Assembly (NCBI GenBank): GCA_037968615.1 | Contig: JBBKVX010000061.1 | Location: 25,126 to 89,125, forward strand | Reading direction: 5' to 3' | DNA from: Rickettsiales bacterium | Lineage (GTDB): Bacteria; Pseudomonadota; Alphaproteobacteria; Rickettsiales; UBA3002 | DNA: 64,000 nt | Shown here: positions 8,527-50,005 of the stretch, one piece after another | Numbering within the stretch: position 1 is the first letter of the stretch | Layout of the letters: each line of letters opens with the position of its first letter | The notes under the pieces: model-generated | The model's database searches: none | What the model saw: the letters and a program-made list of their open reading frames with translations, nothing else | What the model was told of the DNA's origin: nothing | Position numbers and translations under genes: made by a program

Positions 8527-8527
8527 C

Positions 8528-10522: not shown

Positions 10523-11730
10523 GCACGCGTCGCCAGTTCCTGCTGCTGCAAGGGCCGATGGGCTCGTTCTTCAAAAAGCTGGCAGCACATCTTCGGCGGA
10601 ATGGCCATGGCACGCTGCGTGTGAATTTCAATGGCGGCGACGCGTTGCATTTCTGTAGCAGCCATGCCGTGAATTTTTTCGGACGGCTGGAGGAATGGCC
10701 TGCCGAAGTTGTGCGCCTCGCCACCGTTCACGGCATCACCGATCTTATTCTCTACGGCGATTGCCGCCCGCTGCACCAACTGGCCATCGCAGCGCTGCAA
10801 CCGCTTGGCGTGCGCGTTCATGTGTACGAAGAAGGCTATTTCCGGCCCGACTGGGTGACGATGGAAGAAGGGGGCGTGAACGGTTTTTCGCCGTTGCCGC
10901 GCGACGCCGGATTTTATCGTGCGCTGCCTCCGGGCGAAAGCCCCGCGCGTGCGCCGATGCCGTTCGGCTCCAGTTTTCCTAGACTGGTGCGCCATACGAT
11001 GAGTTATTACATGGCGTCGGCATTGCTGGGCATACATTACCGCCACTACCGCACCCACCGCCCCCGCACCTACCAACGCGAGGGCTGGGCATGGTTCCTG
11101 CGGTTGACCGAGAATTATGTCATGAAATCCCTGATTCTTCGCCGACAGGCAAAGGCGCTGACCGCGCCCAATCCTTATTATCTGGTGCTGCTGCAATTGA
11201 TGGGCGATTCGCAGATCACGCATCATTCGCCCTACCACGACATGTACGAATTCCTGAACGAGGTGCTGAACGATTTTGCGCAGCATGCGCCTGAGGATAT
11301 GCGGTTGATCGTCAAAAACCATCCGCTCGATAATGGGTTGATGCGCTACACAAGTTTCTTGGAACAGAAGGCGATCAGCTTGGGGTTAAGCGACCGTTTG
11401 CTGTTCCTCGATGGCGGCCATTTACCCACGTTGTTGCACCATGCGCGCGGTGTGGTGGCGGTGAACAGCACGGCAGGTCTGTCGGCGTTGCATCACCATG
11501 TGCCGGTGCGGCTGATGGGCGATGCGGTCTACGCCATCCCCGGGTTGGTAAGCGCCCAGCCCCTCAAGGAATTCTGGCACCAGCCCGAGCAGCCCGATGC
11601 GGCGCTTTTCACGGCGTTCCGTAAGTATGTTCTGGATAATTCCCAGCTTTATGGCAGCTTCTATACACGGTTGGGCATCCGTGCGACGGTGCGCGCCAGC
11701 CTGAGTCGCCTGTTGGAGCCCGCCGCATGA
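10519..11730 (+). CDS. kpsS: Capsule beta-Kdo transferase KpsS
   Basis: N-terminus RRQFLLLQGPMGSFFKKLA... is typical of KpsS, with a single capsule-synthesis domain. 4-nt overlap with kpsC. Confidence 0.8.
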   Translation: MSTRRQFLLLQGPMGSFFKKLAAHLRRNGHGTLRVNFNGGDALHFCSSHAVNFFGRLEEWPAEVVRLATVHGITDLILYGDCRPLHQLAIAALQPLGVRVHVYEEGYFRPDWVTMEEGGVNGFSPLPRDAGFYRALPPGESPARAPMPFGSSFPRLVRHTMSYYMASALLGIHYRHYRTHRPRTYQREGWAWFLRLTENYVMKSLILRRQAKALTAPNPYYLVLLQLMGDSQITHHSPYHDMYEFLNEVLNDFAQHAPEDMRLIVKNHPLDNGLMRYTSFLEQKAISLGLSDRLLFLDGGHLPTLLHHARGVVAVNSTAGLSALHHHVPVRLMGDAVYAIPGLVSAQPLKEFWHQPEQPDAALFTAFRKYVLDNSQLYGSFYTRLGIRATVRASLSRLLEPAA

Positions 11731-12524
11731 CGCATGCTGTCACGATACGCGCTGCTTTCGCCGAACAAGGCAGGGTGCTGCATGCCTTGTTGCTGCGTGA
11801 AATTCGCACGCGCTTCGGCAGCCGCCGCATTGGCTACGCCTGGGCGCTGGTCGAACCAGCGCTGCATGTCAGCGTAATGTATGCATTGCGCAGCGTCACG
11901 GGCGGGCTAACGCCTGCGCATGTCCCGCTTTTATTGTGGTTGATTACCGGCATTGTTCCCTTCTTCATGTTCCGAAGCATTGTGCTGCGCATGGTGAATG
12001 CAGTGAGCACCAACCAAACAACCCTAGCCCTGCCACCCGTGAAGCTGATGGATGTTCTCTGGGCACGAGTGCTGCTGGAAATCGCCACTTATTCGGGCAT
12101 TCTGATTGTTTTCCTGATGCTCGCTGGGCTCCTCATCGAACCAGTCGCCGTCAGCCAGCCGCTGGAGGTGATGGGCTGCATGTTCATGCTGGCTGCTTTG
12201 GGCATGGGCTACGGTATGATCGCCATGACTTTTATCGCAGTTTTCCCCTCAACGAAGCCCTTGCTCAGCGGAATATTGCGCATGTTGTATTTCATGTCGG
12301 GCACGATTTTCTCCGTATCGCGCCTGCACCCCGATCTCTATCCCTACCTGACATGGAACCCGTTGCTGCATGTGTTTGAATCGCTGCACGCGGCGTTCTT
12401 CATAGAGTACACGCCGGTGCCATTTGCCTCCGACCTAAGCTATGCGGGTGCCTTTGCTTTGCTCATGCTGCTGTTGGGCAAACTGCTGGTGCAGCGTTTC
12501 AAACGCCAGGTGATGGAGGTGTGA
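11727..12524 (+). CDS. kpsM: Capsule export ABC transporter permease KpsM (ABC-2 type)
   Basis: 265 aa and about 6 TM segments. N-terminus LLLREIRTRFGSRRIGYAWALVEPAL is typical of KpsM. Coupled to kpsS and kpsT. Confidence 0.85.
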   Translation: MTHAVTIRAAFAEQGRVLHALLLREIRTRFGSRRIGYAWALVEPALHVSVMYALRSVTGGLTPAHVPLLLWLITGIVPFFMFRSIVLRMVNAVSTNQTTLALPPVKLMDVLWARVLLEIATYSGILIVFLMLAGLLIEPVAVSQPLEVMGCMFMLAALGMGYGMIAMTFIAVFPSTKPLLSGILRMLYFMSGTIFSVSRLHPDLYPYLTWNPLLHVFESLHAAFFIEYTPVPFASDLSYAGAFALLMLLLGKLLVQRFKRQVMEV

Positions 12525-12525
12525 G

Positions 12526-13173
12526 GTGATCGTACTCGACAACGTCCATAAAAGTTACCGCACCTTCTTCGGTCGAAAAAAAGTGCTCGATGGCATTAAC
12601 CTGATTATTCCGCGCGATGTAAGTATGGGCATATTGGGCCGCAATGGTGCGGGCAAATCCACCCTCATCCGCATCCTCTCCGGCATCGATACGCCCGATG
12701 TGGGTTCGGTGTCGCATCCCGGCATTCGCATGTCGTGGCCAATTGGGCGCGGTGGCATCCAATCCACGCTCACCGGGCGCGACAACGTGCGTTTTGTCAG
12801 CCGCGTCTACGGACTGGATATGCAGGCCACCTTTGATTTCGTGGAAGAGTTTGCCGAGCTTGGCCGCTATCTCGACATGCCGGTGACCACCTACTCGGCG
12901 GGCATGCGCTCGCGTCTTGCGTTCGCCCTAAGCATGGTCGCCGATTACGATTGCTACTTGGTGGATGAAGGATTCAGTGCCGGGGATGCCCGCTTCACAC
13001 AGCGCATGTCCGATTTGTTCGATGCTCGCCGAGAGCGTTCGAATATGATCGTGGTGTCGCACAGCGCTTCGGTTATCAAGCGTTTCTGCAATAAGGCGGC
13101 AATCCTTGAGAAGGGCCGCCTTACCGTGTATGAGGACATTAACGAAGCCATCGCCATATACAGGGACCTATGA
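12526..13173 (+). CDS. kpsT: Capsule export ABC transporter ATP-binding protein KpsT
   Basis: Walker A GRNGAGKST, signature YSAGMRSRLAFA, Walker B YLVDEG. GTG start. Confidence 0.85.
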   Translation: MIVLDNVHKSYRTFFGRKKVLDGINLIIPRDVSMGILGRNGAGKSTLIRILSGIDTPDVGSVSHPGIRMSWPIGRGGIQSTLTGRDNVRFVSRVYGLDMQATFDFVEEFAELGRYLDMPVTTYSAGMRSRLAFALSMVADYDCYLVDEGFSAGDARFTQRMSDLFDARRERSNMIVVSHSASVIKRFCNKAAILEKGRLTVYEDINEAIAIYRDL

Positions 13174-14330
13174 CAACCGTTGCACCGATACGCGATCAGC
13201 GCATTTCTTATTTTTGGCGCTTTCTTACCTGGCTGGTCATGCTTTTTGCACCGCTGCGCGGCGGGTTGCTGCTTTGTGTGGCTGTGCCGACGCTGCTGGC
13301 TACATTGTACCAAGGGCTCATTGCATCCGATATTTATGTTTCGGAAAGCGCTTTCAGTATCCGACAGGAGAAATCCACCGGCGGGCTGACCGAACTGGGC
13401 ATGGCCATCCCCGCGTTGCAAGGCGCCGGTCAGCAAGACCTGCTGACGGTCAACACGTACATTCTCTCCCGTTCGATGGTGGATGAGTTGGATAAGAAGC
13501 TCGATCTGCAAGCGATCTATCGACATGCCGATGCCGACCGCCTCGCGCGCCTGAAGATCGACGCCAATCAGGAAGAGCTACTGAATTATTACCGCTCACG
13601 CGTGCTTATTCATTACGACGAGCGGGCGCAGATTTCGACGCTGAATGTGCAGGCCTTTACATCGGAAGATGCGAAGCTGCTCAACGAAACCATATTGGAG
13701 CTGGCGGAAACATTTGTGAACCAGCTGTCCGCAGCGATGCGGGAGGACAGCATTTCGTTCGCACGCAGCCAAGTGACAATGGCCGAAAAAGAGATGATCT
13801 CCGCGAACAAAGCGTTGAGCGGTTTCCGCGAAGAGAATCGTAATTTTGACCCCGCACTGGCCTCCCAAGGCGTCGGCAGCCTGCTGCTCGGCTTGGAAAC
13901 CAAGATCGCGGAAAAACGCGCCGAACTCGATGCGGCGCGCGGCACCATGACCAGCCGCAACCAGAATTTGCGCAATCTCGAGCGCGAAGTGGCGGCGCTG
14001 GAGCGTCAGGTGACCAGTCAGAACCGTCGTCTGACCGGCGGCACAAGCGATACGTTGGGCCGACAGCTCGAAAATTTCACCAGCGTTTCGTTGCTTCAAG
14101 ATTTTGCGGTAAAACGTTATGGGTTGGCGCTGGTGTCGTTGGAAGCGGCGCAGGCAGAGGCGGCACGAAAAAATATTTATCTCGCCCGCATCGTTGCTCC
14201 CTCTTTGCCCGACATTGCGACGGAGCCGCGCCGTTTTTATCGCGTTATGTCGGTTTTCTTCCTTACATTGGCGGGCTACGCCATGCTGCTCCTGATCGCG
14301 GCTTCCATTGGCGATCACATCCGCAAATAA
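13170..14330 (+). CDS. kpsE: Capsule export inner-membrane co-polymerase KpsE
   Basis: N- and C-terminal TM helices around a long coiled-coil periplasmic region. [12 protein letters not shown] motif near the N-terminus. Follows kpsT with an ATGA overlap. Confidence 0.75.
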
Positions 14331-14385
14331 CCATAATTTTTTTAGCAATAGTGTGTTGCCCGGCGCTAACCGGGCTGCTATTGCT

Positions 14386-15549
14386 ATGGAACATATGGTC
14401 AAACCTAACATTCTTGTGGTTTTCGGCACTCGTCCCGAAGCGATTAAAATGGCTCCCGTGGTGCACGCATTGCGTATGTCAGGCGCTAATTTGCGCGTCT
14501 GCGTCACGGCTCAGCATCGGCAAATGCTCGATCAGGTATTGAAGCTGTTCGAGATCGCGCCTGATTATGACCTCGACCTGATGCAGCCCGGCCAGACTCT
14601 GCCGGAACTGACCGCCCATATCCTGCGCGGAATGACCGCGGTGTTCGACGATTTCATGCCCGATCGCGTAATGGTGCATGGCGACACCACGACCACCATG
14701 GCCGTGGCGCTGGCTGCGTATTATCGCCGCATTCCGGTGGCGCATGTCGAGGCGGGGCTGCGCACGGGCGACCTGTATTCCCCTTGGCCGGAAGAGGCCA
14801 ACCGCAAGCTCACCGGTGCATTGACGCATTGGCATTTTGCACCCACCGAGTCGGCGCGCGCCAACCTGCTGGCCGAAGGGGTGGATGAAAAATACATCTA
14901 CGTGACCGGCAATACAGTGATCGACGCGCTGCATATGGCCAACGAAAAACTTACCCGCAACGCTTCGTGGAAGACCGCGCTCGATAAAGAATTTTCTTTC
15001 CTGCGCCCTGAAGCACGGTTGGTGTTAATGACCGGCCATCGCCGCGAGAATTTCGGTGAAGGGTTCGAGCGCATCTGTGCGGCACTGCGCATATTGGCCA
15101 CCACCTATCCGGATGTCGATTTTCTCTATCCCGTGCATTTGAATCCCGCAGTGCAGGAGCCGGTGAATCGGTTGCTGGCGGCCCTACCAAACATCCATCT
15201 CGTGACACCGCAGGAATACATCGCGTTCGTATATCTTATGCAGCGCGCGACGTTGATCCTCACCGATTCGGGCGGCATTCAGGAAGAAGCCCCTTCACTT
15301 GGCAAGCCTGTGCTGGTGATGCGTGATACGACCGAACGCCCGGAAGCTGTAAACGCTGGCACCGTGATGCTGGTGGGTACGGATACAAGCCGCATCGTTG
15401 CCGGCGTACGCAACCTGCTTGATGATCCCCGCGAATACCAGCGCATGGCGCAAGCCCATAATCCCTATGGCGATGGGCGCGCCGCCGCCCGCATTGCCGA
15501 GATCATGCAGCCCGCCGAATCCGCACGTATGGGGAAGACCACTGCCTAG
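14386..15549 (+). CDS. wecB: UDP-N-acetylglucosamine 2-epimerase
   Basis: [17 protein letters not shown]...HVEAGLRT...DSGGIQEE motifs. Start chosen at the ATG at 14386 (ORF opens at 14308). Confidence 0.85.
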
Positions 15550-16804
15550 TCATTTCCAGCGCGTCTCTGTCATTGGCCTCGGTTATATTGGTTTGCCGAC
15601 GGCGGCGGCCTTTGCCGCGCGTCGCATCGAAGTGATCGGCGTCGACATCAACCAGCACGCGGTCGACACCATCAACAGTGGTGCCATCCATATCGTGGAA
15701 CCCGATCTCGACATCATCGTGCATGCGGCGGTCACCGAAGGCTATTTGCGCGCCACCACCACACCCGAACCGGCGGATGCTTTTCTCATTGCCGTGCCCA
15801 CTCCTTTCATCGGCGATCATGAGCCGGATTTGAGTTATGTGCGCGCGGCGGCAGAAGCCATCGCCCCCGTGCTGGTGCCCGGCAATCTCGTCATTCTGGA
15901 ATCCACTTCACCCGTGGGCAGCACCGAAAAAATGGCCGAATGGTTGGCGCTGGCGCGCCCTGATCTTCGCTTCCCGCAGCACGCAGGCGAAGCTTCCGAC
16001 ATACGCATCGCGCATTGCCCCGAGCGTGTATTGCCCGGCCATGTGATGCGCGAGTTGGTGGCGAACGACCGCGTTATCGGCGGTATGACGCCCGCCTGCG
16101 CCGCGGCTGCTGTGGCGCTCTATAAATTGTTCGTTGAGGGGGAATGCATTACAACTGGCGTGCGCACCGCCGAAATGTGTAAGCTCACCGAGAATGCATT
16201 TCGCGATGTGAACATTGCATTTGCCAACGAGCTTTCCATGATCTGCGATCGGCTCAGCGTTCCTGTCTGGGAGCTTATTCGCCTCGCCAACCACCATCCG
16301 CGGGTGAATATTTTGGAACCGGGCTGTGGGGTGGGCGGGCATTGCATTGCCGTCGATCCGTGGTTCATCGTGCATGAAACACCGGAGGAGGCGCGCCTCA
16401 TCCACACCGCCCGAAAAGTGAACGACAGCAAACCGCAATGGGTGATCGCCAAAGTGGAGGCGGCCGTGAAAGCCCTTGGGCGCGACATATCGGATATGCG
16501 CATCGCGTGCTTTGGTCTCGCCTTCAAACCAGACATCGACGACCTGCGCGAAAGCCCGGCGCTGGAGATCACCGCGCGGCTCGCCGCATTGTATCCCGGC
16601 CGCGTGCTGGCGGTGGAACCGCATATCCAGCAATTGCCGCCAGCGCTCGCCAAGGCAGGCGTGACCCTTCTTTCAGCGGAAGCGGCAGTCTCGCAGGCGG
16701 ATATTCTGGTGCTGTTGGTCAGCCACAGTGCATTTATGGTGCCCGAACTAAGCGTCAGTGCGCGCAATAAACCAATGGTTGACACGAAAGGCATATGGGC
16801 CTGA
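15473..16804 (+). CDS. wecC: UDP-N-acetyl-D-mannosamine dehydrogenase (start uncertain)
   Basis: Rossmann motif [17 protein letters not shown], catalytic-region [15 protein letters not shown]. There is no ATG/GTG/TTG between the wecB stop and the Rossmann motif. Candidate starts at 15467, 15473 and 15494 all overlap wecB. Confidence 0.75.
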
Positions 16805-16830
16805 GTCGGCCCGCATAAATCAGGAACAGT

Positions 16831-18798
16831 ATGACACAGGAACAGACAGCGATTCCAGCAGAAGCCAAAGGAAGCATGAGCAAACCTCAAGATGCAAAAC
16901 TGAAGCTGGCCCAACGGCGCGTGGTCGAGTTGGAGAAGAAATTGAAGCTGCAGGTGCTCGCCGCCAAAACAGCCGAACAAAGAATAAAAAACCATCTTTC
17001 CTATCGTCTGGGCACAGTGGTGATCCAAAATAGTAATCCTCTGAAATGGCCATTACTGGTCTTCCGGCTTTACGCCGAGCGCCGCGCATTTTATGTGATG
17101 AAATATGAGTTGAAGACGAAGAGTCCGCTGGCCGGAGACCCGCTTCGTCGCTGGGCTAGGCTGCATAAAAGAAAGGGAATGCCCGCGCTGCTCGATGCGA
17201 TTGCCGACCCCAAACTTGGGCTGCCTGCTCGCGTAAAACTTTGGCTGCAAGCGGCAAGCCAGCTTGGCCTAAAAAATGAAAAACTCGCATTGGAAGTATC
17301 GGAGGCCGTCCTGCCGTTCGAAGAAAGCGGACGCACCTTGCGCAGCTGTTTCTGGATGTCGCTCAAGAACCAACAAGTGGTGTTAGCCAAGGAATATGCG
17401 GTGCGTATAGTTGGTACGGTTCGCGCAGATTCCAGCAACGAGGAACGCGAGCGTATTGAAAAAATTAAAGCGAATCCTGTCTTTCAGCTAACGCTGCTCG
17501 ATGCGGTGCCTCCGCGCACGAAACTGCAGATTGAATCGATTCCAAAACGTATCTGCTATGTGCTGCACAACAGCTTACCTTTCTGCTCTGGCGGCTACGC
17601 AGCCCGTGCACAGGGTGTGGCCGATGGAATGCAGCAGGCGGGTTACGATGTGGTCGTTATTACGCGACCTGGGTTTCCTTACGATATCAGGCCTGATGTT
17701 CTTCCGAGTGCGGTGCCGATACCGAACATGGTGCACGGCATTCCGCATTACCATATGGCCACGCCAGTGCGCGACAGAACGCGCCCCACCTTCGAATACA
17801 TGGTGGCCTCGGCCGATGCCATGGAGGCGCAACTGCGCGAACATCGCCCATCGTTGGTAATGGCGGCTTCCAACTATATGACTGCCCTGCCGGTTCTTAT
17901 CGCTGCGCGGCGGCTCGGCATCCCCTTTATCTACGAAGTGCGCGGTTTGTGGGAAATTACCCGCGTATCGCGGGAGAAGAGTTTCGAAAATACCCTCGGA
18001 TACCACGTATTGAAAATCATGGAATCGGCAACGGCCATGCAAGCCGACCGTGTGTTCACCCTCACCGAACCGATGCGCGAAGAACTGATGGCGCGTGGTG
18101 TTGCGCCTGAGCAAATCGATCTGTTGCCCAATTCCTGCGACCCCTTGCGGTTCTTGCCACAGCCGCGCGATGCGGCGCTGGCGGCCGAACTTGGTATCCC
18201 GGAAGGCGTGGCCGTGATTGGTTATGTTGGCACCTTCGTGGGTTATGAGGGGCTGGACGATTTAGCCAAAGCCTGTGGTATGTTGAAAAAACAAGGCGTT
18301 GCCTTCCGTTTGTTATTGGTCGGTAACGAGAACACCGCCGATAATTCGCGCGGCTCCATCACCGATGAAATCGTCACCATGGCCGAGAAGGGCGGGTTCA
18401 CCGATTGGCTCATCATGCCCGGGCGGGTGCCGCACGAGCAGGTCGAGCGTTATTACTCGTTGATCGACATCGCACCGTTCCCGCGCAAGCCATGGCCGGT
18501 CTGCGAAATGGTGTCGCCGATGAAGCCGCTGGAGGCATTGGCGATGGAGAAGGCAGTGGTGGTGTCGAACGTGCGCGCACTGGCGGAAATGATCGCCGAT
18601 CAAAAAACCGGCCTGCTGTTCGAGAAGGGGAATGTTGGCAGCTTAGCGCAGGTGCTGCGCCAACTGATTGAAAACCCCGCACTCCGTCGCACGCTCGGTC
18701 AGCAAGGTCGCCAATGGGTAGAGAGCGAGCGCACCTGGAAAAAAATCGGTCTCAAAATGTCCGAAATCGTAACGCGGTCCCCCGAATTGATGGTGTGA
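16831..18798 (+). CDS. Two-domain glycosyltransferase: unknown N-terminal domain of about 250 aa plus a GT4/GT1-type domain
   Basis: C-terminal half has GT4 features (CYVLHNSLPFCSGGYAARA..., E..G..LLEA-like PLEALAMEKAVVVS). The N-terminal part has a coiled-coil (KLKLAQRRVVELEKKLKLQ). GC is lower than in the kps genes. Confidence 0.7.
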   Translation: MTQEQTAIPAEAKGSMSKPQDAKLKLAQRRVVELEKKLKLQVLAAKTAEQRIKNHLSYRLGTVVIQNSNPLKWPLLVFRLYAERRAFYVMKYELKTKSPLAGDPLRRWARLHKRKGMPALLDAIADPKLGLPARVKLWLQAASQLGLKNEKLALEVSEAVLPFEESGRTLRSCFWMSLKNQQVVLAKEYAVRIVGTVRADSSNEERERIEKIKANPVFQLTLLDAVPPRTKLQIESIPKRICYVLHNSLPFCSGGYAARAQGVADGMQQAGYDVVVITRPGFPYDIRPDVLPSAVPIPNMVHGIPHYHMATPVRDRTRPTFEYMVASADAMEAQLREHRPSLVMAASNYMTALPVLIAARRLGIPFIYEVRGLWEITRVSREKSFENTLGYHVLKIMESATAMQADRVFTLTEPMREELMARGVAPEQIDLLPNSCDPLRFLPQPRDAALAAELGIPEGVAVIGYVGTFVGYEGLDDLAKACGMLKKQGVAFRLLLVGNENTADNSRGSITDEIVTMAEKGGFTDWLIMPGRVPHEQVERYYSLIDIAPFPRKPWPVCEMVSPMKPLEALAMEKAVVVSNVRALAEMIADQKTGLLFEKGNVGSLAQVLRQLIENPALRRTLGQQGRQWVESERTWKKIGLKMSEIVTRSPELMV

Positions 18799-18799
18799 T

Positions 18800-19642
18800 A
18801 TGGAAACGCCGCCACTGATACAGTATGCGGGCTTGGATGCATTTTTGCAGGCGAGCGATTACCCGTCGGGCCATCACCGCTGCACAATGAATGGCATGCA
18901 TTACGACCTGCTCATTAAGCGCCGTGCTGGCACACACACGATCTTCATGTTCCATGGCGCAAATAAGCGAGAAAGGCCCTTGCCCTACTTCATCGGACTG
19001 GGCGTCACAGGTTCTCTTGATGCGGATATTATTTATGTTTCGGATCCCTCTTTACAGCAATCAGATACGTTACGCATCGGATGGTATGCGGGTGGCGGTC
19101 ACCCGCCAGTGCAGCAGACGCTTGTGCCCATGATTCGGGCTATTCTGGACTGCACGGGGCGCCCTGCACTGTTTTTTGGCGCTTCAGGAGGTGGGTTTGC
19201 AGCGCTTTACTACAGCTGGTTTGTACCAGAGAGCTGGTGTCTCCCAATCAATCCGCAGTCTATTTTGCATAACTATAGTGCACGTATTTATCAGGCCTTC
19301 CTTCTTGCGTGCCATGACGGCAGAGATAAAGGGCAAGAGATAGTTAGCCAAGCAACGTTCGATTTAAGAAAACTATATCAAGGTGGTTATAAGAACCGTA
19401 TTCTTTATCTTCAGAATGCAAGTGACCATCATGTTGGTCAGCACATGCTGCCTTTTTTAAATGGGTTGCCGACGTTCGAGAATATTCGAGTGCTAATGGG
19501 TAACTGGGGTGTGGGACATCACGTCGCGCCCAAAGAGTTGATAGTCCGGCTTTTAGAGCAAGCCCTTGTCGGTTCCTTGGCCAACGAAGGCGAGCCCGCG
19601 ATCGATGTCCTGCGTCGGCTCGATAGCGAGCCCGCTGCTTAG
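18800..19642 (+). CDS. Alpha/beta-hydrolase-like protein (possible polysaccharide O-acyl transferase or esterase)
   Basis: G-x-S-x-G-type motif FFGASGGGFAALYY with downstream ASDHHVGQH. Begins 2 nt after the glycosyltransferase stop. GC is markedly low, roughly 40-45% by eye over 19260-19500. Confidence 0.5.
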   Translation: METPPLIQYAGLDAFLQASDYPSGHHRCTMNGMHYDLLIKRRAGTHTIFMFHGANKRERPLPYFIGLGVTGSLDADIIYVSDPSLQQSDTLRIGWYAGGGHPPVQQTLVPMIRAILDCTGRPALFFGASGGGFAALYYSWFVPESWCLPINPQSILHNYSARIYQAFLLACHDGRDKGQEIVSQATFDLRKLYQGGYKNRILYLQNASDHHVGQHMLPFLNGLPTFENIRVLMGNWGVGHHVAPKELIVRLLEQALVGSLANEGEPAIDVLRRLDSEPAA

Positions 19643-21048
19643 AGCCCGCTCAAATAAGCGGCGAGGGCCGTGTGCAATGCGGCCGCTTCCGTGGAAGTAA
19701 GGCTGGCACCGATGCCCGCGCAGGCGAGGCGATAATCCGCATAGATGGAGGTGTGTTTTAACAACGTGACGTTCTGGCTGGCGAAGCCCGTGGTGGTATC
19801 GCTCGTGGTGCCCGCCGCAACACCATTTTTGTATGCTTCCGACGCGGTTGGCCCCGAGCGGTTGATATGGGTGAGGCCCATGATGGTCGCCTGTGCGGCG
19901 AAACTGGAGGTGTTGCCGTTAAGGTTTCCGCGAATGGTGCCGCCGGACACAGCGCTTCGCGGCGCCAGTGAGTGGCGCGTCGTTCCGGAGGCCTGCCCCA
20001 CGGCGTACACTGAGGCGGCGCTGTCGGTGCCGTCATTGACCCAGGCGAAGATGCTGGCGCTGTCCAGCGACATTTGGCTCAGGCTGTTCCATGCGATGCC
20101 GGAATCCAGGTAAGAGGAAGCGCCGTTGCCCTGATAACCCGCGTTGGCGGCAAAGCTGGGCGCGCTGATGGGCGTGAGTGCGTTGGCTGGGTTTTTCCAG
20201 TTCAAACAGGCGGCCTGCGCATCGGCGGCCGCCATGATCCATAGCAGGTCCAGCTTCGCCCAGATGCCGGCATCAATCAGCGCGCCGATCAGGTCATCGA
20301 TGAGGAAACTGCGTTTGCGTTTCGGGGCATTGGTCATCGCTTCGATGACCAGCTGCGTTTGGGGCAGCACCAGTCCGCGCAGAATATTGAACCCAATGCG
20401 GGTGGCGGAAGGCTGGCCCGGCGTCATCGCGCCGGTGCTACGATTGATGACCAGCGCCTCCTGCCAACTGCTGCCATCGGGCGATACTTTGATGTGGAAA
20501 TTATCGTCGCCGGTCAATCCGAATTCGGCGCGGCCCGAGTAATTGGTCTGGAACAAATGCGACGCATTATTGGCGGCCGCCAGTTTATTCACCTTCACCT
20601 GGGCGCTGCTGCCATCGTGATCGAACAATACGGCGTCGGATTTAACGGCCAGCTTGTTGGTGCTGTCGGCGCTGCTGTTCACGCCAAGTTTCGCCACGCT
20701 TTCGGCGCTGCCCGCATTCACCCATGCGCTGCCGTTGTAGGCGCAGAGCTTGTCTTCATCGGCCACCCACAAGGTGAGTCCTTCGTTGGGCGCCACGAAC
20801 ACCCAGCCCTTGCTGCTGTGGTAATAGCTGCATGCACCGGCATGGCCGCTCCATGCACCGCTCGCGCCCACAGGCAATATATAGAGATCGCCATCGGCGG
20901 GCAGGGCGGGGGGCGTGGTGATGCTGCGGCTGAGAGCGGCGGTGTTGCAGAAGGCATCCAGTGCCAGCAGACCCTCGTTCATCACAATTTCTTTGGCGGC
21001 CATATTCTGGTCCAGAAATTGTAAGCCCAGATTTGGGGTGGTGGTCAT
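19639..21048 (-). CDS. DUF2793-type phage/GTA tail-fibre-like protein
   Basis: N-terminus TPNLGLQFLDQNMAAKEIVMNEGLLALDA...PPALPADGDLYILPVGASGAWSGHAG...GWVFVAPNEGLTLWVADEDKL..YNGSAW matches the DUF2793 pattern as I recall it. It is followed by KLGVNSSADSTNKLAVKSDAVLF...NYSGRAEFGLTGDDNFHIKVSPDGSSW. Confidence 0.65.
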   Translation of the reverse strand: MTTTPNLGLQFLDQNMAAKEIVMNEGLLALDAFCNTAALSRSITTPPALPADGDLYILPVGASGAWSGHAGACSYYHSSKGWVFVAPNEGLTLWVADEDKLCAYNGSAWVNAGSAESVAKLGVNSSADSTNKLAVKSDAVLFDHDGSSAQVKVNKLAAANNASHLFQTNYSGRAEFGLTGDDNFHIKVSPDGSSWQEALVINRSTGAMTPGQPSATRIGFNILRGLVLPQTQLVIEAMTNAPKRKRSFLIDDLIGALIDAGIWAKLDLLWIMAAADAQAACLNWKNPANALTPISAPSFAANAGYQGNGASSYLDSGIAWNSLSQMSLDSASIFAWVNDGTDSAASVYAVGQASGTTRHSLAPRSAVSGGTIRGNLNGNTSSFAAQATIMGLTHINRSGPTASEAYKNGVAAGTTSDTTTGFASQNVTLLKHTSIYADYRLACAGIGASLTSTEAAALHTALAAYLSGL

Positions 21049-21160
21049 CGCATCCTCCTATGTCGTTGCTGTTCGCTGGTTGTAACCCTGCTCCCTGCTA
21101 CCCGGAAGCGGGGTACAGAAAACATTTCCCACAGCACAGATCAGCGATTAAGCCATCAGC

Positions 21161-22159
21161 ATGTCCACACGCCCGTCCATCGCCCGCCCGCTGCGCATTG
21201 CCCTTGTGGCCGATGCATTGACGCGTGCGGCTTTGGCGGCCGAGGCGAACATCACCCATATCACCCCGCGCAATTACCGCTGGGCGCTGCGGCTGGCTCG
21301 GCCCGATTTTCTGCTCGTCGAATCGGCGTGGGAAGGGCGTGGCGTGTGTTGGAAATATAAAATCGCTTCCTATCCTGACGTGCCCAAACGCAGCAATATC
21401 CTGCTGCAACGAATGATCGCCTGCGCACGCGGCCTCGGTATTCCCACCGTGTTCTGGAATAAAGAGGACGGCGTACATTTCGATCGTTTCATCGACAGCG
21501 CGCTGTTGTGCGAGCATATCCTCACCGTGGATGCGAACTGCATTGAGGCATACCGCGCGCGGGGTGCGACGTCGGTGCATAGCATGATGTTCGCGGTGCA
21601 GCCTCGTCTGCACCACCCCATCGCCTCCGTGCCAACGCAGGCCAGCGCTAGCTTTGTTGGCAGCTACAGCCACCATGTGCATGATGGCCGCCGTGTGCGG
21701 CAGGATATGCTGTTCGCTGCCTGCGCCGAAGCGGGGTTTGGTCTCACGGTCTACGACCGAAATTCCTGCCGCCGGTCGCCCAATTACCGCTACCCGACCG
21801 GCATCGACGTGCGAGCTGCCGTGCCGTACGAAGCGACCGCCGATATCTATCGCGACCATCTCGTATCGTTGAACGTCAACACCGTCGAGGATTCGCCCAC
21901 CATGTGTTCGCGGCGCTTATTGGAAATCATTGCCAGCGGCGGGCTGTGCGTGACCACGCCCGCCCTGTCCGTAGCGCAGCATTTTGCTCCCTATTGCCAC
22001 ACGGTGTCTACGCAGGCGGAGGCGGTGGAATTACTGGCCCGTTTAAAGCGCGACGGCCATTCGGGCGCCGACCGCGCCATGATGGCGGCAGGCGCCGCCT
22101 GCATCGCCGAGCAGCATAGCTGGGCAGTGCGGATGCAGCAGATCACTGCTTTGATTTAA
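21161..22159 (+). CDS. CgeB-like glycosyltransferase family protein
   Basis: N-terminal pattern RIALVAD...ARPDFLLVESAWEG..G.W.YKI and a C-terminal Glyco_trans_1_2-like region (MCSRRLLEIIASGG). Assigned from motif recall only. Confidence 0.5.
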   Translation: MSTRPSIARPLRIALVADALTRAALAAEANITHITPRNYRWALRLARPDFLLVESAWEGRGVCWKYKIASYPDVPKRSNILLQRMIACARGLGIPTVFWNKEDGVHFDRFIDSALLCEHILTVDANCIEAYRARGATSVHSMMFAVQPRLHHPIASVPTQASASFVGSYSHHVHDGRRVRQDMLFAACAEAGFGLTVYDRNSCRRSPNYRYPTGIDVRAAVPYEATADIYRDHLVSLNVNTVEDSPTMCSRRLLEIIASGGLCVTTPALSVAQHFAPYCHTVSTQAEAVELLARLKRDGHSGADRAMMAAGAACIAEQHSWAVRMQQITALI

Positions 22160-22433
22160 CGAAGCGCCGAAGCAATTGCCCGCGCCATAAGCCGCGATGG
22201 TAGTTGAAAAAGAACCATCCATAAAACCGTACAAAACCGTAGGCGACGAACGCCATCGGGTCGCCCTCGTTGCGCATGTGCTGCAGCAGGGCGCGGTCTG
22301 CGGCGCAACGCTCGCGCTCGCCACCACCACCGCGCACCCCGTAGGCATTGTCGTGCGCCTTGCACCCGACGTTGCGGTTGTATTTGCTGCCATCAAGGAA
22401 AACACAATAGGCGCGCTGGGGAGGGCGAGGCAT
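22143..22433 (-). CDS. Small hypothetical protein with PLA2-like HD..Y/CxxD motifs and a hydrophobic C-terminal segment
   Basis: 96 aa. GCKAHDNAYG parallels the secreted-PLA2 CCxxHDxCY motif and RCAADRAL parallels CxCDxxA. Aromatic hydrophobic segment MAFVAYGFVRFYGWFFFNY. Competing overlapping ORFs look like noise. Confidence 0.45.
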   Translation of the reverse strand: MPRPPQRAYCVFLDGSKYNRNVGCKAHDNAYGVRGGGGERERCAADRALLQHMRNEGDPMAFVAYGFVRFYGWFFFNYHRGLWRGQLLRRFVKSKQ

Positions 22434-22470
22434 CTTTCCGGTTCCGTTCGGGTGATTTTCTGCCTAGATA

Positions 22471-23520
22471 ATGCGCATGGCAGTCCATAAGCGCAAAGTA
22501 TTTTATCTCAGCGGGTTCGATCCGCGTGGCGCGCGGCATTACCATCAGCTGTGCCAGGAAGCCGCCCGAACCTATGATGCCGAGGTCACGCCCCGAACGG
22601 CGGAGGGATGGCAGATTCGCAAAGACGCCACCACGACCGATTACCGTTTCCTGAGCTGGGACGACATCGTGCGCCGCGCTTGGGTACGCCAGCCGTTGAC
22701 GCTGGTGTGGCGTGCATTGCGCATGTACGCGACCTACGCACGCCACCTGCAATGGCGCGACACGTTCGCGCTGCCGCAGGCGCCGCTCATCACCCTGCTG
22801 TATCCACTGGCGTTCATGGTGCTGTTGCCCGTGGTGCTTTTTGGCCTGGGCGCATGGCTGATGCCATGGCCATTGGCGCTGGCCATGGCCGCGCTGTTGT
22901 CGGTGGCGGCGTTACAGCTTAGCAAGGGGCTGTGGCTGTTGCGCTTTTTTGTGTTCAACCACCGCGCCGCGAGTGATCATGAACTCGATGCGCGGCTCGA
23001 TCGTTTTGCGCAGGAAATCCATGCCAGTTTTAGCGAACCTTACGACGAAATTTTGCTCTTGGCGCACAGCAACGGCAGCATTCTTTCCGTGCCGTTAATG
23101 GAAAAACTATCCGCGCTCGGCGGCTGGCCTGAGCATTTCCGACTCGTGACGTTGGGTCAGTGCATTCCGCTCGTCAGCCTGTTGCGCAGCGCCGTTGGTT
23201 TCCGACAGCAGCTCGCCCAGCTTGCAACGCGTCGCTTCTACTGGTGCGACATCGGCTTCCCGCCGGATGGCGCTGCCTACGGCCGCACCAATACGTTCGC
23301 GCCCTTGCAGTCGGGGCCGGATGTGACGCTTAAACTCTTGTCCCCACGCTTCTTCCAATATTACGAACCCGCGCGTTATCAGCGTCTGCGCCGCAACAAA
23401 TACCAACTGCATTTTGCCTACCTGCATACGGGCGATCACCACTCACCCATCGATTTCATGGCGCTGGTGGCCGGGCCACACAGCCTGCCCGAATCGGTGC
23501 AGCTGTACGAGGCCGCATGA
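22471..23520 (+). CDS. Membrane protein with a lipase-like AHSNG motif, function unknown
   Basis: 349 aa. Central TM pair (LITLLYPLAFMVLLPVVLFGLGAWLMPWPLALAMAALLSVAAL). ILLLAHSNGS resembles a nucleophile elbow. ATGA coupling to the downstream P450. Confidence 0.55.
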   Translation: MRMAVHKRKVFYLSGFDPRGARHYHQLCQEAARTYDAEVTPRTAEGWQIRKDATTTDYRFLSWDDIVRRAWVRQPLTLVWRALRMYATYARHLQWRDTFALPQAPLITLLYPLAFMVLLPVVLFGLGAWLMPWPLALAMAALLSVAALQLSKGLWLLRFFVFNHRAASDHELDARLDRFAQEIHASFSEPYDEILLLAHSNGSILSVPLMEKLSALGGWPEHFRLVTLGQCIPLVSLLRSAVGFRQQLAQLATRRFYWCDIGFPPDGAAYGRTNTFAPLQSGPDVTLKLLSPRFFQYYEPARYQRLRRNKYQLHFAYLHTGDHHSPIDFMALVAGPHSLPESVQLYEAA

Positions 23521-24872
23521 TGGAACATTTCGTGCCGCCCTATCCCAAACCTCACCGCAGCAAGCTGGGGCGCCTCGCGCGTTTCGGTGTGGGCTGGGGC
23601 TCGTGGATCCATACGCTGTACGAGAAAAGCTACCGCATGAAAATGGGCGAGGTGAAGCTGCCCGGCATGCATTTCTTCCTGCCCAACGAAGTGTCGTTGG
23701 TGGCGCAGGTGATGGACGACCCGAAGCAATTTCCCAAACATGCCTTCCTGCATGAGATACTGGAACCGCTGATCGGTGACAGCGTGTTCTCCATCAACGG
23801 CGATGCGTGGAAACATGCCCGCGCTATGGTGAACCCGGCTTTCGCCCACACCCATCTCAGCAAAGCCTTCGGCACCATGGACGAAGCCGCGCGCGAAATG
23901 GTGGCACGTATTCGTACCCGCGATCTGTCGAAAAAACTTCATATCGATCCGCTGATGACGCATGTCACGGCGGATATTATTTTCCGCACCATCCTCTCGG
24001 AAAAACTCACCGAAGAAGAAGCGCTGCGCATTTTTGCTTCGTTCGAGCGTTACCAAAAATACGTGCAGCCGAGCATGATCCTGCGCAGCTATGGCCTGCC
24101 CATGGGTTACTACAAACGCAAGCTGCTGAAGGCAGCGGCAGAGATCCATGCCGTGTTCGCGCCCCCCATTAAAGCCCGCCACGCCGCCTTCCATGCGGGC
24201 GAGGAGGGGCCGGACGATATTTTGAAAGCGCTGCTCGAAGCCAAACACCCCATCACCGGCGCACCGTTCACCTACAAGGAACTGGTGGATCAGGTGGCGA
24301 TCATTTTCCTCGCTGGGCATGAAACTTCGGCGGGGGCGCTCACTTGGGCATTGTACCTCACCGCCAGCTGTCCGCATGTGCAAGCGACCATGGTGGCCGA
24401 AGCCCACGCCGCCAACCTCGACGATTCCGGCAGCATCCGGCACATGGAACAGACGAAAAACGTCTTCCGCGAAACGTTGCGCCTTTACCCTCCGGTGAGT
24501 TTTCTGATGCGTGAAGTGGCCGAGCCAATGACCATGCGCGGCAAAGCCTTGAAGCCCGACGACTTGCTGGTCGTATCCCCTTGGCTGGTGCAACGGAACG
24601 AAGACAACTTCCCTTGCCCCCACGCGTTCCAACCCGAGCGTTTCACCGACCCTGCGCAGCAGGATGCCTGCAAAAATGCGTACCTGCCGTTCGGCAAAGG
24701 CCCGCGCATCTGCATTGGCGCAGGCTTCGCGCAGCAAGAAGCGGTCATCATCCTTGCGCGTATGGTGGAAGCGTTCGAGCTCAGCGTGCCCCAAGGCGAA
24801 CGCCCCGAACCCACCTACCGCCTCACGCTGCGCCCGAAGCACGGCATACGGTTGAAACTAACACCAAGATAA
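23517..24872 (+). CDS. Cytochrome P450
   Basis: Haem-binding loop FGKGPRICIGAGFA, ExxR motif ETLRLYPP, I-helix AGHETSA. Confidence 0.9.
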   Translation: MMEHFVPPYPKPHRSKLGRLARFGVGWGSWIHTLYEKSYRMKMGEVKLPGMHFFLPNEVSLVAQVMDDPKQFPKHAFLHEILEPLIGDSVFSINGDAWKHARAMVNPAFAHTHLSKAFGTMDEAAREMVARIRTRDLSKKLHIDPLMTHVTADIIFRTILSEKLTEEEALRIFASFERYQKYVQPSMILRSYGLPMGYYKRKLLKAAAEIHAVFAPPIKARHAAFHAGEEGPDDILKALLEAKHPITGAPFTYKELVDQVAIIFLAGHETSAGALTWALYLTASCPHVQATMVAEAHAANLDDSGSIRHMEQTKNVFRETLRLYPPVSFLMREVAEPMTMRGKALKPDDLLVVSPWLVQRNEDNFPCPHAFQPERFTDPAQQDACKNAYLPFGKGPRICIGAGFAQQEAVIILARMVEAFELSVPQGERPEPTYRLTLRPKHGIRLKLTPR

Positions 24873-24895
24873 AACAGGAAAACACCCGTAGGGTG
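24871..24895 (-). terminator. Rho-independent terminator after tRNA-Thr (also closes the convergent P450 gene)
   Basis: Minus strand reads CACCC-TAC-GGGTG followed by TTTTCCTGTTTT, immediately 3' of the tRNA CCA end. Confidence 0.5.
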
Positions 24896-24970
24896 TGGTG
24901 CCGGTTGCAGGAATTGAACCCGCGACCTTCGGTTTACAAAACCGCTGCTCTACCCCTGAGCTAAACCGGC
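24896..24970 (-). tRNA. tRNA-Thr (anticodon TGT)
   Basis: Manual cloverleaf, 75 nt: acceptor GCCGGTT/AACCGGC, D-arm GCTC-AGGGGTA-GAGC, anticodon loop TTTGTAA, T-arm GCGGG-TTCAATT-CCTGC, encoded CCA. Confidence 0.85.
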
Positions 24971-25020
24971 ACATATCGTGGGGTGTAATGGATTTGGTGG
25001 CACAGTGCAAGATGCGGCGT

Positions 25021-49935: not shown

Positions 49936-50005
49936 AAACCTGCTCCCCCTTTAACGCATTGTTAACGGCTCTCAGCGTATGCTGCATTCATACAGGGAGA
50001 GTCCA

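What the first reader, a model, noticed from the sequence alone, without database searches (positions are those of the whole stretch)
19639..21048. Orphan DUF2793 tail-fibre-like gene abutting the capsule locus
A 469-aa minus-strand ORF converges on the last capsule-region gene, and their stop codons overlap. Its N-terminal 110 residues fit the DUF2793 pattern (TPNL.L..L.......HNE.L..LD...PP..P..GD.Y......GAW.G.......GW.F..P.EG...WV.DE......G..W). The following block fits too (LGVNSSADSTNKLAVKSDAVLF...SGRAEFGLTGDDNFHIKVSPDGSSW). As I recall, this family is found in phage and gene-transfer-agent tail-fibre or spike-type proteins of alphaproteobacteria.

A C-terminal region of about 230 aa is different and could be a receptor-binding or lectin-like domain. 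No other phage gene (capsid, terminase, integrase, tape measure) is present within at least 20 kb on either side.

A lone fibre-type protein next to capsule genes is notable because capsule is a known receptor for GTA and phage fibres.
Basis: partly seen in the sequence, partly recalled or inferred. Interest (0 to 1): 0.55.

Follow-up and report, generated by a model that had tools for sequence, protein, structure and literature searches.

The report
Lone tail-fibre gene inside capsule locus
An intact gene for a phage-type tail fibre of the family used by gene transfer agents sits alone inside the strain-specific part of a capsule-sugar gene cluster, and in related bacteria the fibre and the capsule genes differ together, which suggests the fibre recognises the cell's own capsule.

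Summary
ORF 19639-21048(-) is an intact 469-aa DUF2793 protein (Pfam E 6e-25) whose stop overlaps that of the convergent 280-aa gene. No other phage or GTA structural gene lies in the 64-kb window.

DUF2793 is the family of the Rhodobacter capsulatus GTA tail fibre Rcc00171 and of the roseophage R4C fibre (PDB 8GTC, E 2.7e-8). The protein has three modules:
- an N-terminal rod and knob (residues 1-115);
- a beta-rich middle module (116-214);
- a C-terminal ConA/LamG-like jelly roll (about 222-469; block means mostly above 90), from a large family with no Pfam model that also occurs in phage tail modules and in one RcGTA-like cluster.

The gene is embedded in the capsule locus rather than abutting it. 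It lies in a 7.9-kb block (14324-22176) that shows no DNA-level match to relatives except in part of the fibre gene. Conserved kpsDCSMTE lies on one side and a conserved small-ORF/unknown/P450 triad on the other. Three relatives carry a DUF2793 gene at this site. The two whose flanks can be read have different fibre tips and different capsule genes.

Most likely this is the receptor-binding fibre of a GTA encoded elsewhere, matched to the cell's own capsule. No GTA cluster could be checked. A precedent exists in R. capsulatus, so I rate it a new member of a known kind, with a testable kin-recognition twist.

The parts
19639..21048 (-). Intact 469-aa DUF2793 tail-fibre-type gene
   Evidence: ORF. 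Pfam PF10983, E 6e-25. PHROG hits on both halves. End-to-end alignment with 468-477-aa homologues P0002, P0003, P0004 and P0023. GC3 0.755, like the conserved flanks.
20704..21048 (-). Residues 1-115: N-terminal helix (rod, 18-34) and beta knob (38-111); predicted baseplate-attachment part
   Evidence: Pfam DUF2793 on residues 24-110. phmmer hit to the R4C phage fibre, 8GTC chain S, residues 4-116, E 2.7e-8. AF2 block means above 90 for residues 31-110. In R4C the N-terminal extension of the rod binds the megatron fibre-binding domain (PMC10276861).
20407..20703 (-). Residues 116-214: conserved beta-rich middle module, optional in the family
   Evidence: Covered by phrog_15388 and phrog_25093. 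69-71% identical to P0002 and P0003. Absent from P0005 and from the 245-aa fibre of L027. AF2 pLDDT only 55-84 as a monomer.
19639..20406 (-). Residues 215-469 and stop: linker, three helices, beta-sandwich (266-447) and C-terminal helix; predicted ConA/LamG-like carbohydrate-binding tip
   Evidence: AF2 block means mostly above 90 from residue 231, dipping to 79-85 around 341-360. Foldseek PDB: AbnA domain 4, trans-sialidase, tetanus and botulinum toxin binding fragments, PilC. BFVD: phiN3 'YapH', Rhizobium phage 259-278-aa proteins with TM 0.8, LamG-like phage proteins. 5,972 cluster representatives at E<=1e-3, and no Pfam model.
21054..21058 (-). GGAGG ribosome-binding site 5 nt upstream of the ATG
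   Evidence: Read directly from the sequence.
6748..14330 (+). Conserved capsule export and initiation genes: kpsD-like, kpsC, kpsS, kpsM, kpsT, kpsE
   Evidence: Pfam Poly_export/SLBB, Capsule_synth (two genes), ABC2_membrane, ABC_tran. NCBIfam BexC/CtrB/KpsE hit, E 2e-82 but below the curated cut-off. Proteins 58-71% identical in relative L002.
14324..22176 (.). Block that differs between relatives: wecB, wecC, GT4, unknown 280 aa, fibre gene, second glycosyltransferase
   Evidence: blastn homology to L002 stops at 14323 and resumes at 22177, apart from a weak match inside the fibre gene. Homology to L027 starts at 22177. WecB and UDP-ManNAc dehydrogenase pass NCBIfam cut-offs. The capsule genes of the block have lower GC3 (0.53-0.69) than the flanks.
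18800..19642 (+). Unknown 280-aa gene that converges on the fibre gene with overlapping stop codons
   Evidence: ORF. No Pfam or NCBIfam family. GC3 0.53, the lowest in the locus.
21161..22159 (+). Glycosyltransferase (Glyco_trans_1_2/DUF3880), divergent from the fibre gene
   Evidence: Pfam. No homologue in L002 or L027.
22143..24872 (.). Conserved right border: 96-aa ORF (22143-22433, -), unknown 349 aa (22471-23520, +), cytochrome P450 (23517-24872, +)
   Evidence: The triad is present in about 80 loci. A DUF2793 gene directly follows the small ORF only in L027, L029 and L002/L003.

Best explanation
The gene encodes a modular tail fibre of the RcGTA/roseophage type, presumably trimeric.

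Proposed mechanism:
- The N-terminal helix and knob (DUF2793) would dock three fibres onto the fibre-binding domain of a megatron (g15-type) baseplate protein.
- The C-terminal ConA-like jelly roll would bind a surface sugar.
- Because the gene lies away from any head-tail cluster, as rcc00171 does in Rhodobacter capsulatus, I infer it supplies the receptor-binding fibre of a gene transfer agent encoded elsewhere in this genome.
- Because it lies inside the strain-specific block of a kps-type capsule locus, and differs in relatives where that block differs, I infer its ligand is the capsule made by the neighbouring genes (here a ManNAcA-containing polymer). Particles would then adsorb preferentially to cells of the same capsule type.

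Shown: family membership, domain architecture, predicted fold, orphan position, and conserved placement with differing content in relatives.
Inferred: incorporation into a GTA particle, trimer formation, and capsule as the ligand.
For: Family and fold:
- DUF2793, E 6e-25; homology to the solved R4C fibre 8GTC_S.
- The literature identifies DUF2793/Rcc00171 as the RcGTA tail fibre. It is essential for gene transfer, encoded outside the cluster directly downstream of EPS genes, and binds capsular polysaccharide (PMC5026251; PMC7296036; PMC10218006).
- DUF2793 is present in 225 of 293 GTA-bearing alphaproteobacteria (PMC10883770).
- In L006 and L010-L015 the DUF2793 gene directly follows the megatron gene of an RcGTA-like cluster.
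- AF2 model: helix plus knob, then a confident C-terminal beta-sandwich that matches lectin and CBM jelly rolls.

Links of this architecture to GTA elements:
- A stand-alone homologue of the C-domain (P0136) is encoded inside an RcGTA-like cluster, which also has a 167-aa DUF2793 stub after the megatron gene.
- The full-length homologue P0004 is followed, after one intervening 113-aa gene, by a GTA_holin_3TM gene.

The gene looks native and functional:
- Intact ORF, strong RBS, and GC3 equal to that of the conserved flanks.
- The homologue's GC matches the host locus in each of the five other loci checked, from 41.5% to 64% GC.

Placement and variation in relatives:
- L027 (P450 85% identical) has a 245-aa fibre with an unrelated tip, next to NeuB-type capsule genes.
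- L002/L003 has the same architecture, but the C-domain is only 39% identical and the capsule genes are different.
- L029 also has a DUF2793 gene after the small ORF; the contig ends before the gene does.

Recurrence elsewhere: orphan DUF2793 genes sit among surface-polysaccharide or sugar-nucleotide genes in L004, L008 and L016, and next to a sugar-nucleotide epimerase/dehydratase-type gene in L017.
Against: - No GTA head-tail cluster, megatron, GafA or holin gene is visible in the 64 kb. The rest of the genome could not be reached.
- The source organism is unidentified. It resembles Sphingomonadales only through the conserved triad.
- A 49%-identical full-length homologue occurs in a 46%-GC MAG labelled Rickettsiales. 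Large RcGTA-like clusters were not found in that order (PMC5721377), so the protein may have a role that needs no GTA.
- No full CtrA box lies upstream, and there is no expression data.
- Purified Rcc00171 showed no capsule lyase activity, and its exact ligand is unresolved (PMC5026251).
- The case that fibre and capsule genes vary together rests on three genomes with readable flanks.
- In L108, the second-closest relative by P450 identity, the small ORF is followed by a glycosyltransferase gene and the contig ends, so the fibre is unconfirmed there.
Confidence: 0.6

Rival explanations
1. Relic: the last surviving gene of a decayed prophage, or of phage-mediated capsule-locus transfer, which persists by hitch-hiking in a recombination-prone locus and has no current function.
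For: Both halves have phage homologues. Capsule loci are recombination hot spots (general knowledge). A tRNA-Thr gene lies 3.8 kb away. No partner phage or GTA genes are visible.
Against: The ORF is intact and has a strong RBS. Its composition is fully ameliorated here and in the five other loci checked, from 41.5% to 64% GC. Intact genes occupy the same site in L002/L003 and L027, and a DUF2793 gene cut by the contig end sits there in L029. The docking domain is conserved. No integrase, att-like repeat or IS element flanks the block. The conserved triad separates the block from the tRNA gene.
Confidence: 0.13
2. Domesticated fibre-lectin with a capsule-related role that needs no GTA. Examples: a capsule-binding protein released on lysis that blocks phage or GTA adsorption, or a capsule-modifying enzyme that uses the jelly-roll fold.
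For: Conserved placement inside capsule loci, including a MAG labelled Rickettsiales, an order in which large GTA clusters were not found. In L002 and L027 the fibre gene is co-directional with downstream capsule genes, with gaps of 52 and 91 bp. Free Rcc00171 protein blocks RcGTA transfer in vitro (PMC5026251). Some ConA-like folds are glycanases or lyases (general knowledge).
Against: By inspection of residues 1-40 there is no signal peptide or membrane anchor. Keeping the baseplate-docking rod and knob is hard to explain without a particle. The top structural matches are non-catalytic lectin and CBM domains. No such role is known for any DUF2793 protein.
Confidence: 0.15
3. A fibre supplied in trans to a resident prophage that has an RcGTA-like baseplate, rather than to a GTA.
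For: Many Rhodobacter, Paracoccus and Roseobacter siphophages carry DUF2793 fibres on RcGTA-like baseplates.
Against: In the records checked (H16-H18, RDJL Phi 1, L021) the phage fibre gene sits next to the tail genes. A chromosomal copy conserved at one host locus across related genomes does not fit a mobile prophage.
Confidence: 0.08

Closest known systems
[quoted passage not shown]
   Same: DUF2793 N-terminus. Encoded as a lone gene outside the head-tail cluster and next to polysaccharide genes. Rod, knob and sugar-binding foot layout. Binds capsular polysaccharide (PMC5026251, PMC7296036, PMC10218006).
   Different: Rcc00171 is 371 aa, and its foot was described as beta-propeller-like and compared with the R1-pyocin lectin. 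The protein here is 469 aa, with an extra middle module and a predicted ConA-like jelly roll. Here the neighbours are a kps (ABC-transporter) capsule locus, and the gene is inside the block that differs between relatives.
Fibre protein vBDshSR4C_017 of roseophage R4C (PDB 8GTC chain S, deposited as 'Ribonuclease III')
   Same: Sequence homology over residues 4-116 (E 2.7e-8). [quoted passage not shown]
   Different: The R4C fibre is 230 aa, has an 8-stranded lectin-like foot, and is encoded directly after the megatron gene in a phage genome.
GhsA/GhsB (Rcc01079/Rcc01080), RcGTA head spikes
   Same: Receptor-binding proteins of a GTA whose genes lie immediately upstream of, and are co-regulated with, the capsule genes that make their receptor (PMC5026251).
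   Different: They are unrelated in sequence (the paper reports no conserved domains) and attach to the head, not the tail.
C-terminal domain of 'YapH-like' proteins of Sinorhizobium phages phiN3 and phiM12, and stand-alone 250-280-aa proteins in phage tail modules
   Same: Homologous to residues about 234-447 (tblastn E 3e-16; Foldseek E 2e-24). In phage contig L021 the homologue sits at the end of the tail module, just before a lysis gene.
   Different: Those proteins have other N-terminal anchors or none. No phage record or viral contig searched carries the same DUF2793 plus C-domain fusion.

Membership tests
Pfam DUF2793 (PF10983) | HMM match above the gathering score | tested here: met
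   87.3 bits against a cut-off of 27, E 6.2e-25, residues 24-110, profile positions 2-87 of 87.
RcGTA-type tail fibre (Rcc00171 / R4C gp17) | N-terminal helix (rod) followed by a beta knob, homologous to a fibre seen on a baseplate | tested here: met
   phmmer hit to 8GTC chain S, E 2.7e-8. AF2 helix 18-34 and strands 38-111, with pLDDT block means above 90 from residue 31.
RcGTA-type tail fibre (Rcc00171 / R4C gp17) | Sugar-binding distal (foot) domain | tested here: inconclusive
   The predicted ConA-like jelly roll matches lectin and CBM domains. It is a different fold from the described feet of Rcc00171 and R4C, and binding was not measured.
RcGTA-type tail fibre (Rcc00171 / R4C gp17) | Homotrimer | not testable with these tools
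   Only a monomer could be predicted. The middle module has low monomer confidence (pLDDT 55-84), as could be expected if it folds only in an oligomer.
RcGTA-type tail fibre (Rcc00171 / R4C gp17) | A partner baseplate protein (megatron, g15, with a fibre-binding domain) in the same genome | not testable with these tools
   None in the 64-kb window. The rest of the 103.7-kb contig and the genome could not be fetched.
RcGTA-type tail fibre (Rcc00171 / R4C gp17) | Co-regulation with GTA production (CtrA, GafA, quorum sensing) | tested here: inconclusive
   No TTAA-N7-TTAA site in the 112-bp upstream region; the two sites in the window are elsewhere. No expression data.
Prophage tail fibre | Sits within a phage genome next to tail, capsid, terminase or integrase genes | tested here: not met
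   All scanned neighbours are cellular genes. tblastn with a head-tail gene set hits only the fibre. No flanking repeats.
Capsule-depolymerase tailspike (beta-helix type) | Right-handed beta-helix catalytic domain (pectate-lyase-like, Peptidase_G2 and similar) | tested here: not met
   No such Pfam domain. The model shows a beta-sandwich, and the top matches are non-catalytic lectin domains.
ABC-transporter-dependent (group 2-like, kps) capsule locus (the surroundings) | KpsM/KpsT transporter, KpsE, KpsD-type exporter, KpsC and KpsS, plus a strain-specific biosynthesis block | tested here: met
   Pfam and NCBIfam hits for all six; the KpsE hit (E 2e-82) is below NCBIfam's curated cut-off. The biosynthesis block differs between relatives.

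The most novel reading that the evidence does not exclude
The fibre gene and the genes that build its capsule receptor form a single exchangeable cassette. When the capsule type is swapped by recombination between the conserved kpsE and small-ORF borders, the matching GTA fibre tip travels with it. That would make the locus a 'greenbeard'-like device: one linked block encodes both the surface tag and the means of recognising it, so GTA-delivered DNA goes to cells carrying the same block. The same linkage seems to recur in several alphaproteobacterial lineages (this clade, L004, L008, L016, L017, and R. capsulatus).
Probability: 0.3. Interest if true: 0.75.

Novelty: new member of a known kind. 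Interest (0 to 1): 0.5.

Why it matters
GTA producers lyse, so the trait can persist only if the DNA reaches close kin. Kogay et al. 2024 (PMC10883770) argue that specific polysaccharide receptors could provide this restriction. A locus where the fibre gene is physically tied to the capsule-type genes, and differs where they differ, would be a concrete genetic mechanism for that restriction. It can be tested with capsule-swap and fibre-swap strains.

There are two practical gains:
- The C-terminal domain belongs to a large phage receptor-binding family that has no Pfam model (5,972 cluster representatives).
- The conserved borders (kpsE and the small ORF) give handles for mining paired fibre and capsule types from metagenomes.

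Tried and rejected
- **Small ORF as a fibre partner or chaperone.** The 96-aa ORF (22143-22433) directly precedes the fibre gene in L002 and L027, and weakly hits a 'tail assembly chaperone' PHROG. Rejected: it belongs to a P450/unknown/small-ORF triad found in about 80 loci. In Sphingomonas and Sphingobium it is followed by kdsA, with no DUF2793 gene.
- **PLA2-like reading of the small ORF** (invariant C..HDN.YG and a downstream D). No Pfam hit even at E 10, no PDB sequence hit, and the AF2 pLDDT of 58.8 is too low for a fold search. Left open.
- **CtrA-type regulation.** No TTAA-N7-TTAA site upstream of the fibre gene. The promoter scan found nothing in the 112-bp intergenic region.
- **Island borders.** No att-like or IS repeats around 13000-25500.
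- **Organism identity and the rest of the genome.** The source genome is not among the species representatives. The cluster tables carry no names. Only short Logan contigs of run SRR28403172 were retrievable.
- **Same fusion in phages.** None in 50,697 phage records. The IMG/VR scan returned only two viral contigs, both matching the N-terminal half.
- **NCBIfam.** It has no model for the fibre.
Full report
**1. The observation**

The window has a 469-aa ORF at 19639-21048 on the minus strand. It starts with ATG, and a GGAGG box sits 5 nt upstream. Its TAA stop (19639-19641, reverse strand) overlaps the TAG stop (19640-19642) of a convergent 280-aa ORF.

Pfam places DUF2793 (PF10983) on residues 24-110, at E 6.2e-25 and 87.3 bits against a cut-off of 27. 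PHROG families cover residues 1-209 (E about 1e-41 to 1e-43) and, separately, residues 230-468 (E 6e-24 and 1e-19). One N-terminal hit is annotated 'tail fiber protein'.

The gene has GC3 of 0.755, like the conserved flanking genes. It aligns end to end with 468-477-aa homologues. It is therefore an intact, compositionally native gene.

**2. The surroundings**

Upstream on the plus strand lies a kps-type, ABC-transporter-dependent capsule locus:

| Gene | Coordinates |
|---|---|
| KpsD-like exporter | 6748-8526 |
| KpsC | 8468-10522 |
| KpsS | 10477-11730 |
| KpsM | 11727-12524 |
| KpsT | 12526-13173 |
| KpsE | 13170-14330 |
| WecB | 14308-15549 |
| UDP-ManNAc dehydrogenase (WecC) | 15398-16804 |
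| GT4 glycosyltransferase | 16831-18798 |
| unknown, 280 aa | 18800-19642 |

On the other side of the fibre gene is a second glycosyltransferase (21161-22159). Next come a 96-aa ORF (22143-22433, minus strand), an unknown 349-aa protein, a cytochrome P450 and a tRNA-Thr gene.

The remaining ORFs that I scanned are housekeeping genes: Tad pilus, EAL, UbiA, RsmE, GshA, ComM, a histidine kinase, RpoH, threonine synthase and cytochrome oxidase. tblastn with 14 proteins of an RcGTA-like head-tail cluster hits only the fibre gene in the window. The gene really is an orphan. It is embedded in the capsule locus rather than abutting it.

**3. What the protein is**

*Literature.* Hynes et al. 2016 showed several things about Rcc00171 (PMC5026251):
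- It carries DUF2793 and is essential for RcGTA gene transfer.
- It is encoded outside the head-tail cluster, directly downstream of three EPS genes.
- The purified protein blocks transfer.

Bárdy et al. 2020 located it as the tail fibre on the megatron (g15) protein and described rod, knob and foot domains (PMC7296036). Alim et al. 2023 showed that the fibre binds capsular polysaccharide (PMC10218006). Kogay et al. 2024 found DUF2793 in 225 of 293 GTA-bearing alphaproteobacteria (PMC10883770).

*Tests run here.*
- The protein hits the fibre chain of roseophage R4C (8GTC_S, mislabelled 'Ribonuclease III') over residues 4-116 at E 2.7e-8. In R4C, three fibre trimers attach to the megatron through the N-terminal extension of the rod (PMC10276861).
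- Of 15 loci recovered from species-representative genomes, seven (L006, L010-L015) have the DUF2793 gene directly after the megatron gene of an RcGTA-like cluster. Shakya et al. 2017 reported the same arrangement.

**4. Architecture**

An AlphaFold2 model built on 67 sequences has mean pLDDT 86.5. It shows:
- a helix at 18-34 and a beta knob at 38-111, with block means above 90 from residue 31;
- a beta-rich middle module (112-210) with only 55-84 as a monomer;
- a low-confidence linker at 215-220;
- a confident C-terminal domain, with block means mostly above 90: three short helices, a beta-sandwich (266-447) and a terminal helix (452-468).

Foldseek against the PDB returns non-catalytic jelly rolls of the ConA-like lectin/CBM type: AbnA domain 4, trans-sialidase, the tetanus and botulinum toxin binding fragments, and pilin PilC (E 1e-6 to 1e-3). 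Against viral models it returns the following:
- the Sinorhizobium phage phiN3 'YapH' protein (E 2e-24);
- 259-278-aa Rhizobium phage proteins (TM about 0.8);
- the RDJL Phi 1 'Ribonuclease III' protein, a documented Rcc00171 homologue;
- many 'LamG-like jellyroll' phage proteins.

An exhaustive HMMER search finds 5,972 cluster representatives with this C-domain at E<=1e-3. Among the best 150, most are stand-alone proteins of 250-280 aa. Others carry it at the C-terminus of longer proteins or in two to six matched stretches. Pfam has no model for it.

The modules recombine:
- P0005 joins the knob directly to the C-domain.
- Other DUF2793 proteins carry collagen repeats or Pfam domains PF13884, PF02839, PF21722 and PF26209 in place of this C-domain.
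- No phage record or viral contig searched has this exact fusion.

Both halves have GTA links:
- A stand-alone C-domain protein (P0136) is encoded inside an RcGTA-like cluster. That cluster also has a 167-aa DUF2793 stub after the megatron gene.
- The full-length homologue P0004 is followed, after one 113-aa gene, by a GTA_holin_3TM gene.

**5. Conserved placement, differing content**

The relatives show this pattern:

| Locus | Flank identity to the window | Fibre | Capsule genes next to it |
|---|---|---|---|
| L002/L003 | KpsS 63%, KpsM 58%, KpsT 71%, KpsE 59%, P450 64%, unknown 51%, small ORF 62.5% | 468 aa; 49% overall, 52% knob, 69% middle, 39% C-domain | three 328-aa proteins, an MptE-like protein and others; all different |
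| L027 | P450 85%, unknown 64%, small ORF 79% | 245 aa; knob 58%; unrelated 130-aa tip | 1,278-aa Capsule_synth protein, hexapeptide transferases, NeuB, PIG-L; a nonulosonic-acid type |
| L029 | unknown 59%, small ORF 69% | DUF2793 gene after the small ORF; contig ends within it | not visible |

DNA homology between the window and L027 covers only 22177-24850 (74.8%). Homology with L002 covers 11225-14323 and 22177-24745, plus a weak match inside the fibre gene. The block with no DNA match apart from that is therefore 14324-22176, and it contains the fibre gene.

An anchor survey with the small ORF recovered 79 metagenome loci that carry the small ORF, nearly all with its two partner genes. 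Outside this clade, the small ORF is followed by kdsA or by other genes, not by a DUF2793 gene. One relative, L108 (P450 75%), has a glycosyltransferase gene after the small ORF before the contig ends, so it is undetermined. No repeats or mobile-element genes bound the block.

**6. Recurrence elsewhere**

The eight other DUF2793 loci that are not attached to a GTA cluster fall into two groups.

Next to surface-polysaccharide or sugar-nucleotide genes (four):
- L004, a 46%-GC MAG labelled Rickettsiales, has a full-length 49% homologue that converges with overlapping stop codons on a KpsC/S-like gene.
- L016 (Robiginitomaculum) sits between an ABC transporter ATPase, an oxidoreductase, a UDP-sugar dehydrogenase and a GT4 on one side, and an acyltransferase on the other.
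- L008 (Rhodobacteraceae) sits between a GNVR/AAA_31 protein of the polysaccharide co-polymerase kinase type and a hexapeptide transferase.
- L017 follows a sugar-nucleotide epimerase/dehydratase-type gene.

No such neighbour (four): L005, L007, L009 and L019.

With R. capsulatus, the linkage looks recurrent. The sample is small, and I ran no formal control. In the five other loci checked, the fibre gene's GC matches that of its host locus, which suggests long residence.

**7. Mechanism proposed**

- Shown: family, folds, orphan status, and the conserved site with differing tips and capsule genes.
- Inferred: three trimers dock by residues about 1-35 on a megatron baseplate of a GTA encoded elsewhere. 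The ConA-like tip binds the ManNAcA-containing capsule specified by the adjacent wecB, wecC and glycosyltransferase genes. Particles therefore adsorb to cells of the same capsule type.

Confidence is about 0.6. The main gap is that no GTA cluster could be examined. The source genome is absent from the species representatives, and only short contigs were retrievable.

**8. Rivals**

- An inert prophage relic: 0.13.
- A GTA-independent, capsule-related lectin or enzyme: 0.15. The 'Rickettsiales' homologue and the possible co-transcription with capsule genes in L002 and L027 keep this alive.
- A fibre supplied in trans to a prophage: 0.08.

**9. Novelty and verdict**

A lone DUF2793 fibre gene next to polysaccharide genes is documented for R. 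capsulatus. So is the placement of the GhsA/GhsB head-spike genes beside capsule genes. The protein is a new member of a known kind, with a domain combination not found in the phage collections searched.

The papers I read do not describe a conserved position inside the strain-specific block of a kps locus, with fibre tips and capsule genes differing together. If that pattern holds, it gives a genetic basis for the kin-restricted GTA exchange that Kogay et al. discuss. Interest: 0.5.

Noticed in passing
window 22143-24872 (96-aa ORF on the minus strand, 349-aa unknown, P450); also L023, L026 and L029-L109: A conserved three-gene set occurs in about 80 loci, including Sphingomonas and Sphingobium: a P450, an unknown protein of about 350-375 aa, and a divergent 94-101-aa protein. 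The small protein has invariant C10, C24, H27-D28-N29, Y31-G32, G35-G37 and D46, and an aromatic C-terminal half. This is reminiscent of secreted phospholipase A2 catalytic motifs, but it has no Pfam, NCBIfam or PDB match. It hits phrog_6098 (E 6e-13). The AF2 model was too poor (pLDDT 58.8) to test the fold.
   Followed up: partly
window 19639-20406 (residues 215-469 of the fibre): The C-terminal ConA-like domain belongs to a very large family with no Pfam model: 5,972 cluster representatives at E<=1e-3 and 2,840 at E<=1e-10. Among the best 150, most are stand-alone 250-280-aa proteins. The domain also occurs at the C-terminus of proteins of up to about 2,200 aa, and in two to six matched stretches per protein.
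   Followed up: partly
L022 1-15428 (JGI metagenome contig Ga0620847_0001848): An RcGTA-like cluster encodes a stand-alone homologue of the fibre's C-domain (256 aa) between the capsid gene and the tail genes, and only a 167-aa DUF2793 stub after the megatron gene. This could be a split fibre or a head-associated lectin.
   Followed up: no
window 18800-19642: The 280-aa gene that converges on the fibre gene has the lowest GC3 in the locus (0.53) and belongs to no known family. It contains a GASGGG motif that resembles a hydrolase nucleophile elbow, so it may be a capsule-modifying esterase acquired with the strain-specific block.
   Followed up: no
L007 8826-9875, L009 4386-5288, L019 11673-12191: Genes with YkuD or Tlde1-type L,D-transpeptidase-like domains lie next to orphan DUF2793 fibre genes in three unrelated loci. 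They may be cell-wall enzymes that work with the fibre.
   Followed up: no
window 49951-49965 and 61734-61748: Two perfect TTAA-N7-TTAA (CtrA-box-like) sites occur where 0.19 are expected by chance (2 of 100 shuffles reach two). Neither is near the fibre gene; the second lies just upstream of the tRNA-Met gene.
   Followed up: no
window 29862-31496: A ComM-type (Mg-chelatase-like) gene lies about 9 kb from the fibre gene. ComM is listed among the competence proteins needed to take up RcGTA-delivered DNA (PMC10883770). The gene is widespread, so the proximity may be coincidence.
   Followed up: no
window 14308-16804: The longest ORF for the UDP-ManNAc dehydrogenase starts at a TTG at 15398 and overlaps wecB by 150 nt. 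The Pfam match begins at residue 55, so the true start is probably near 15550.
   Followed up: no
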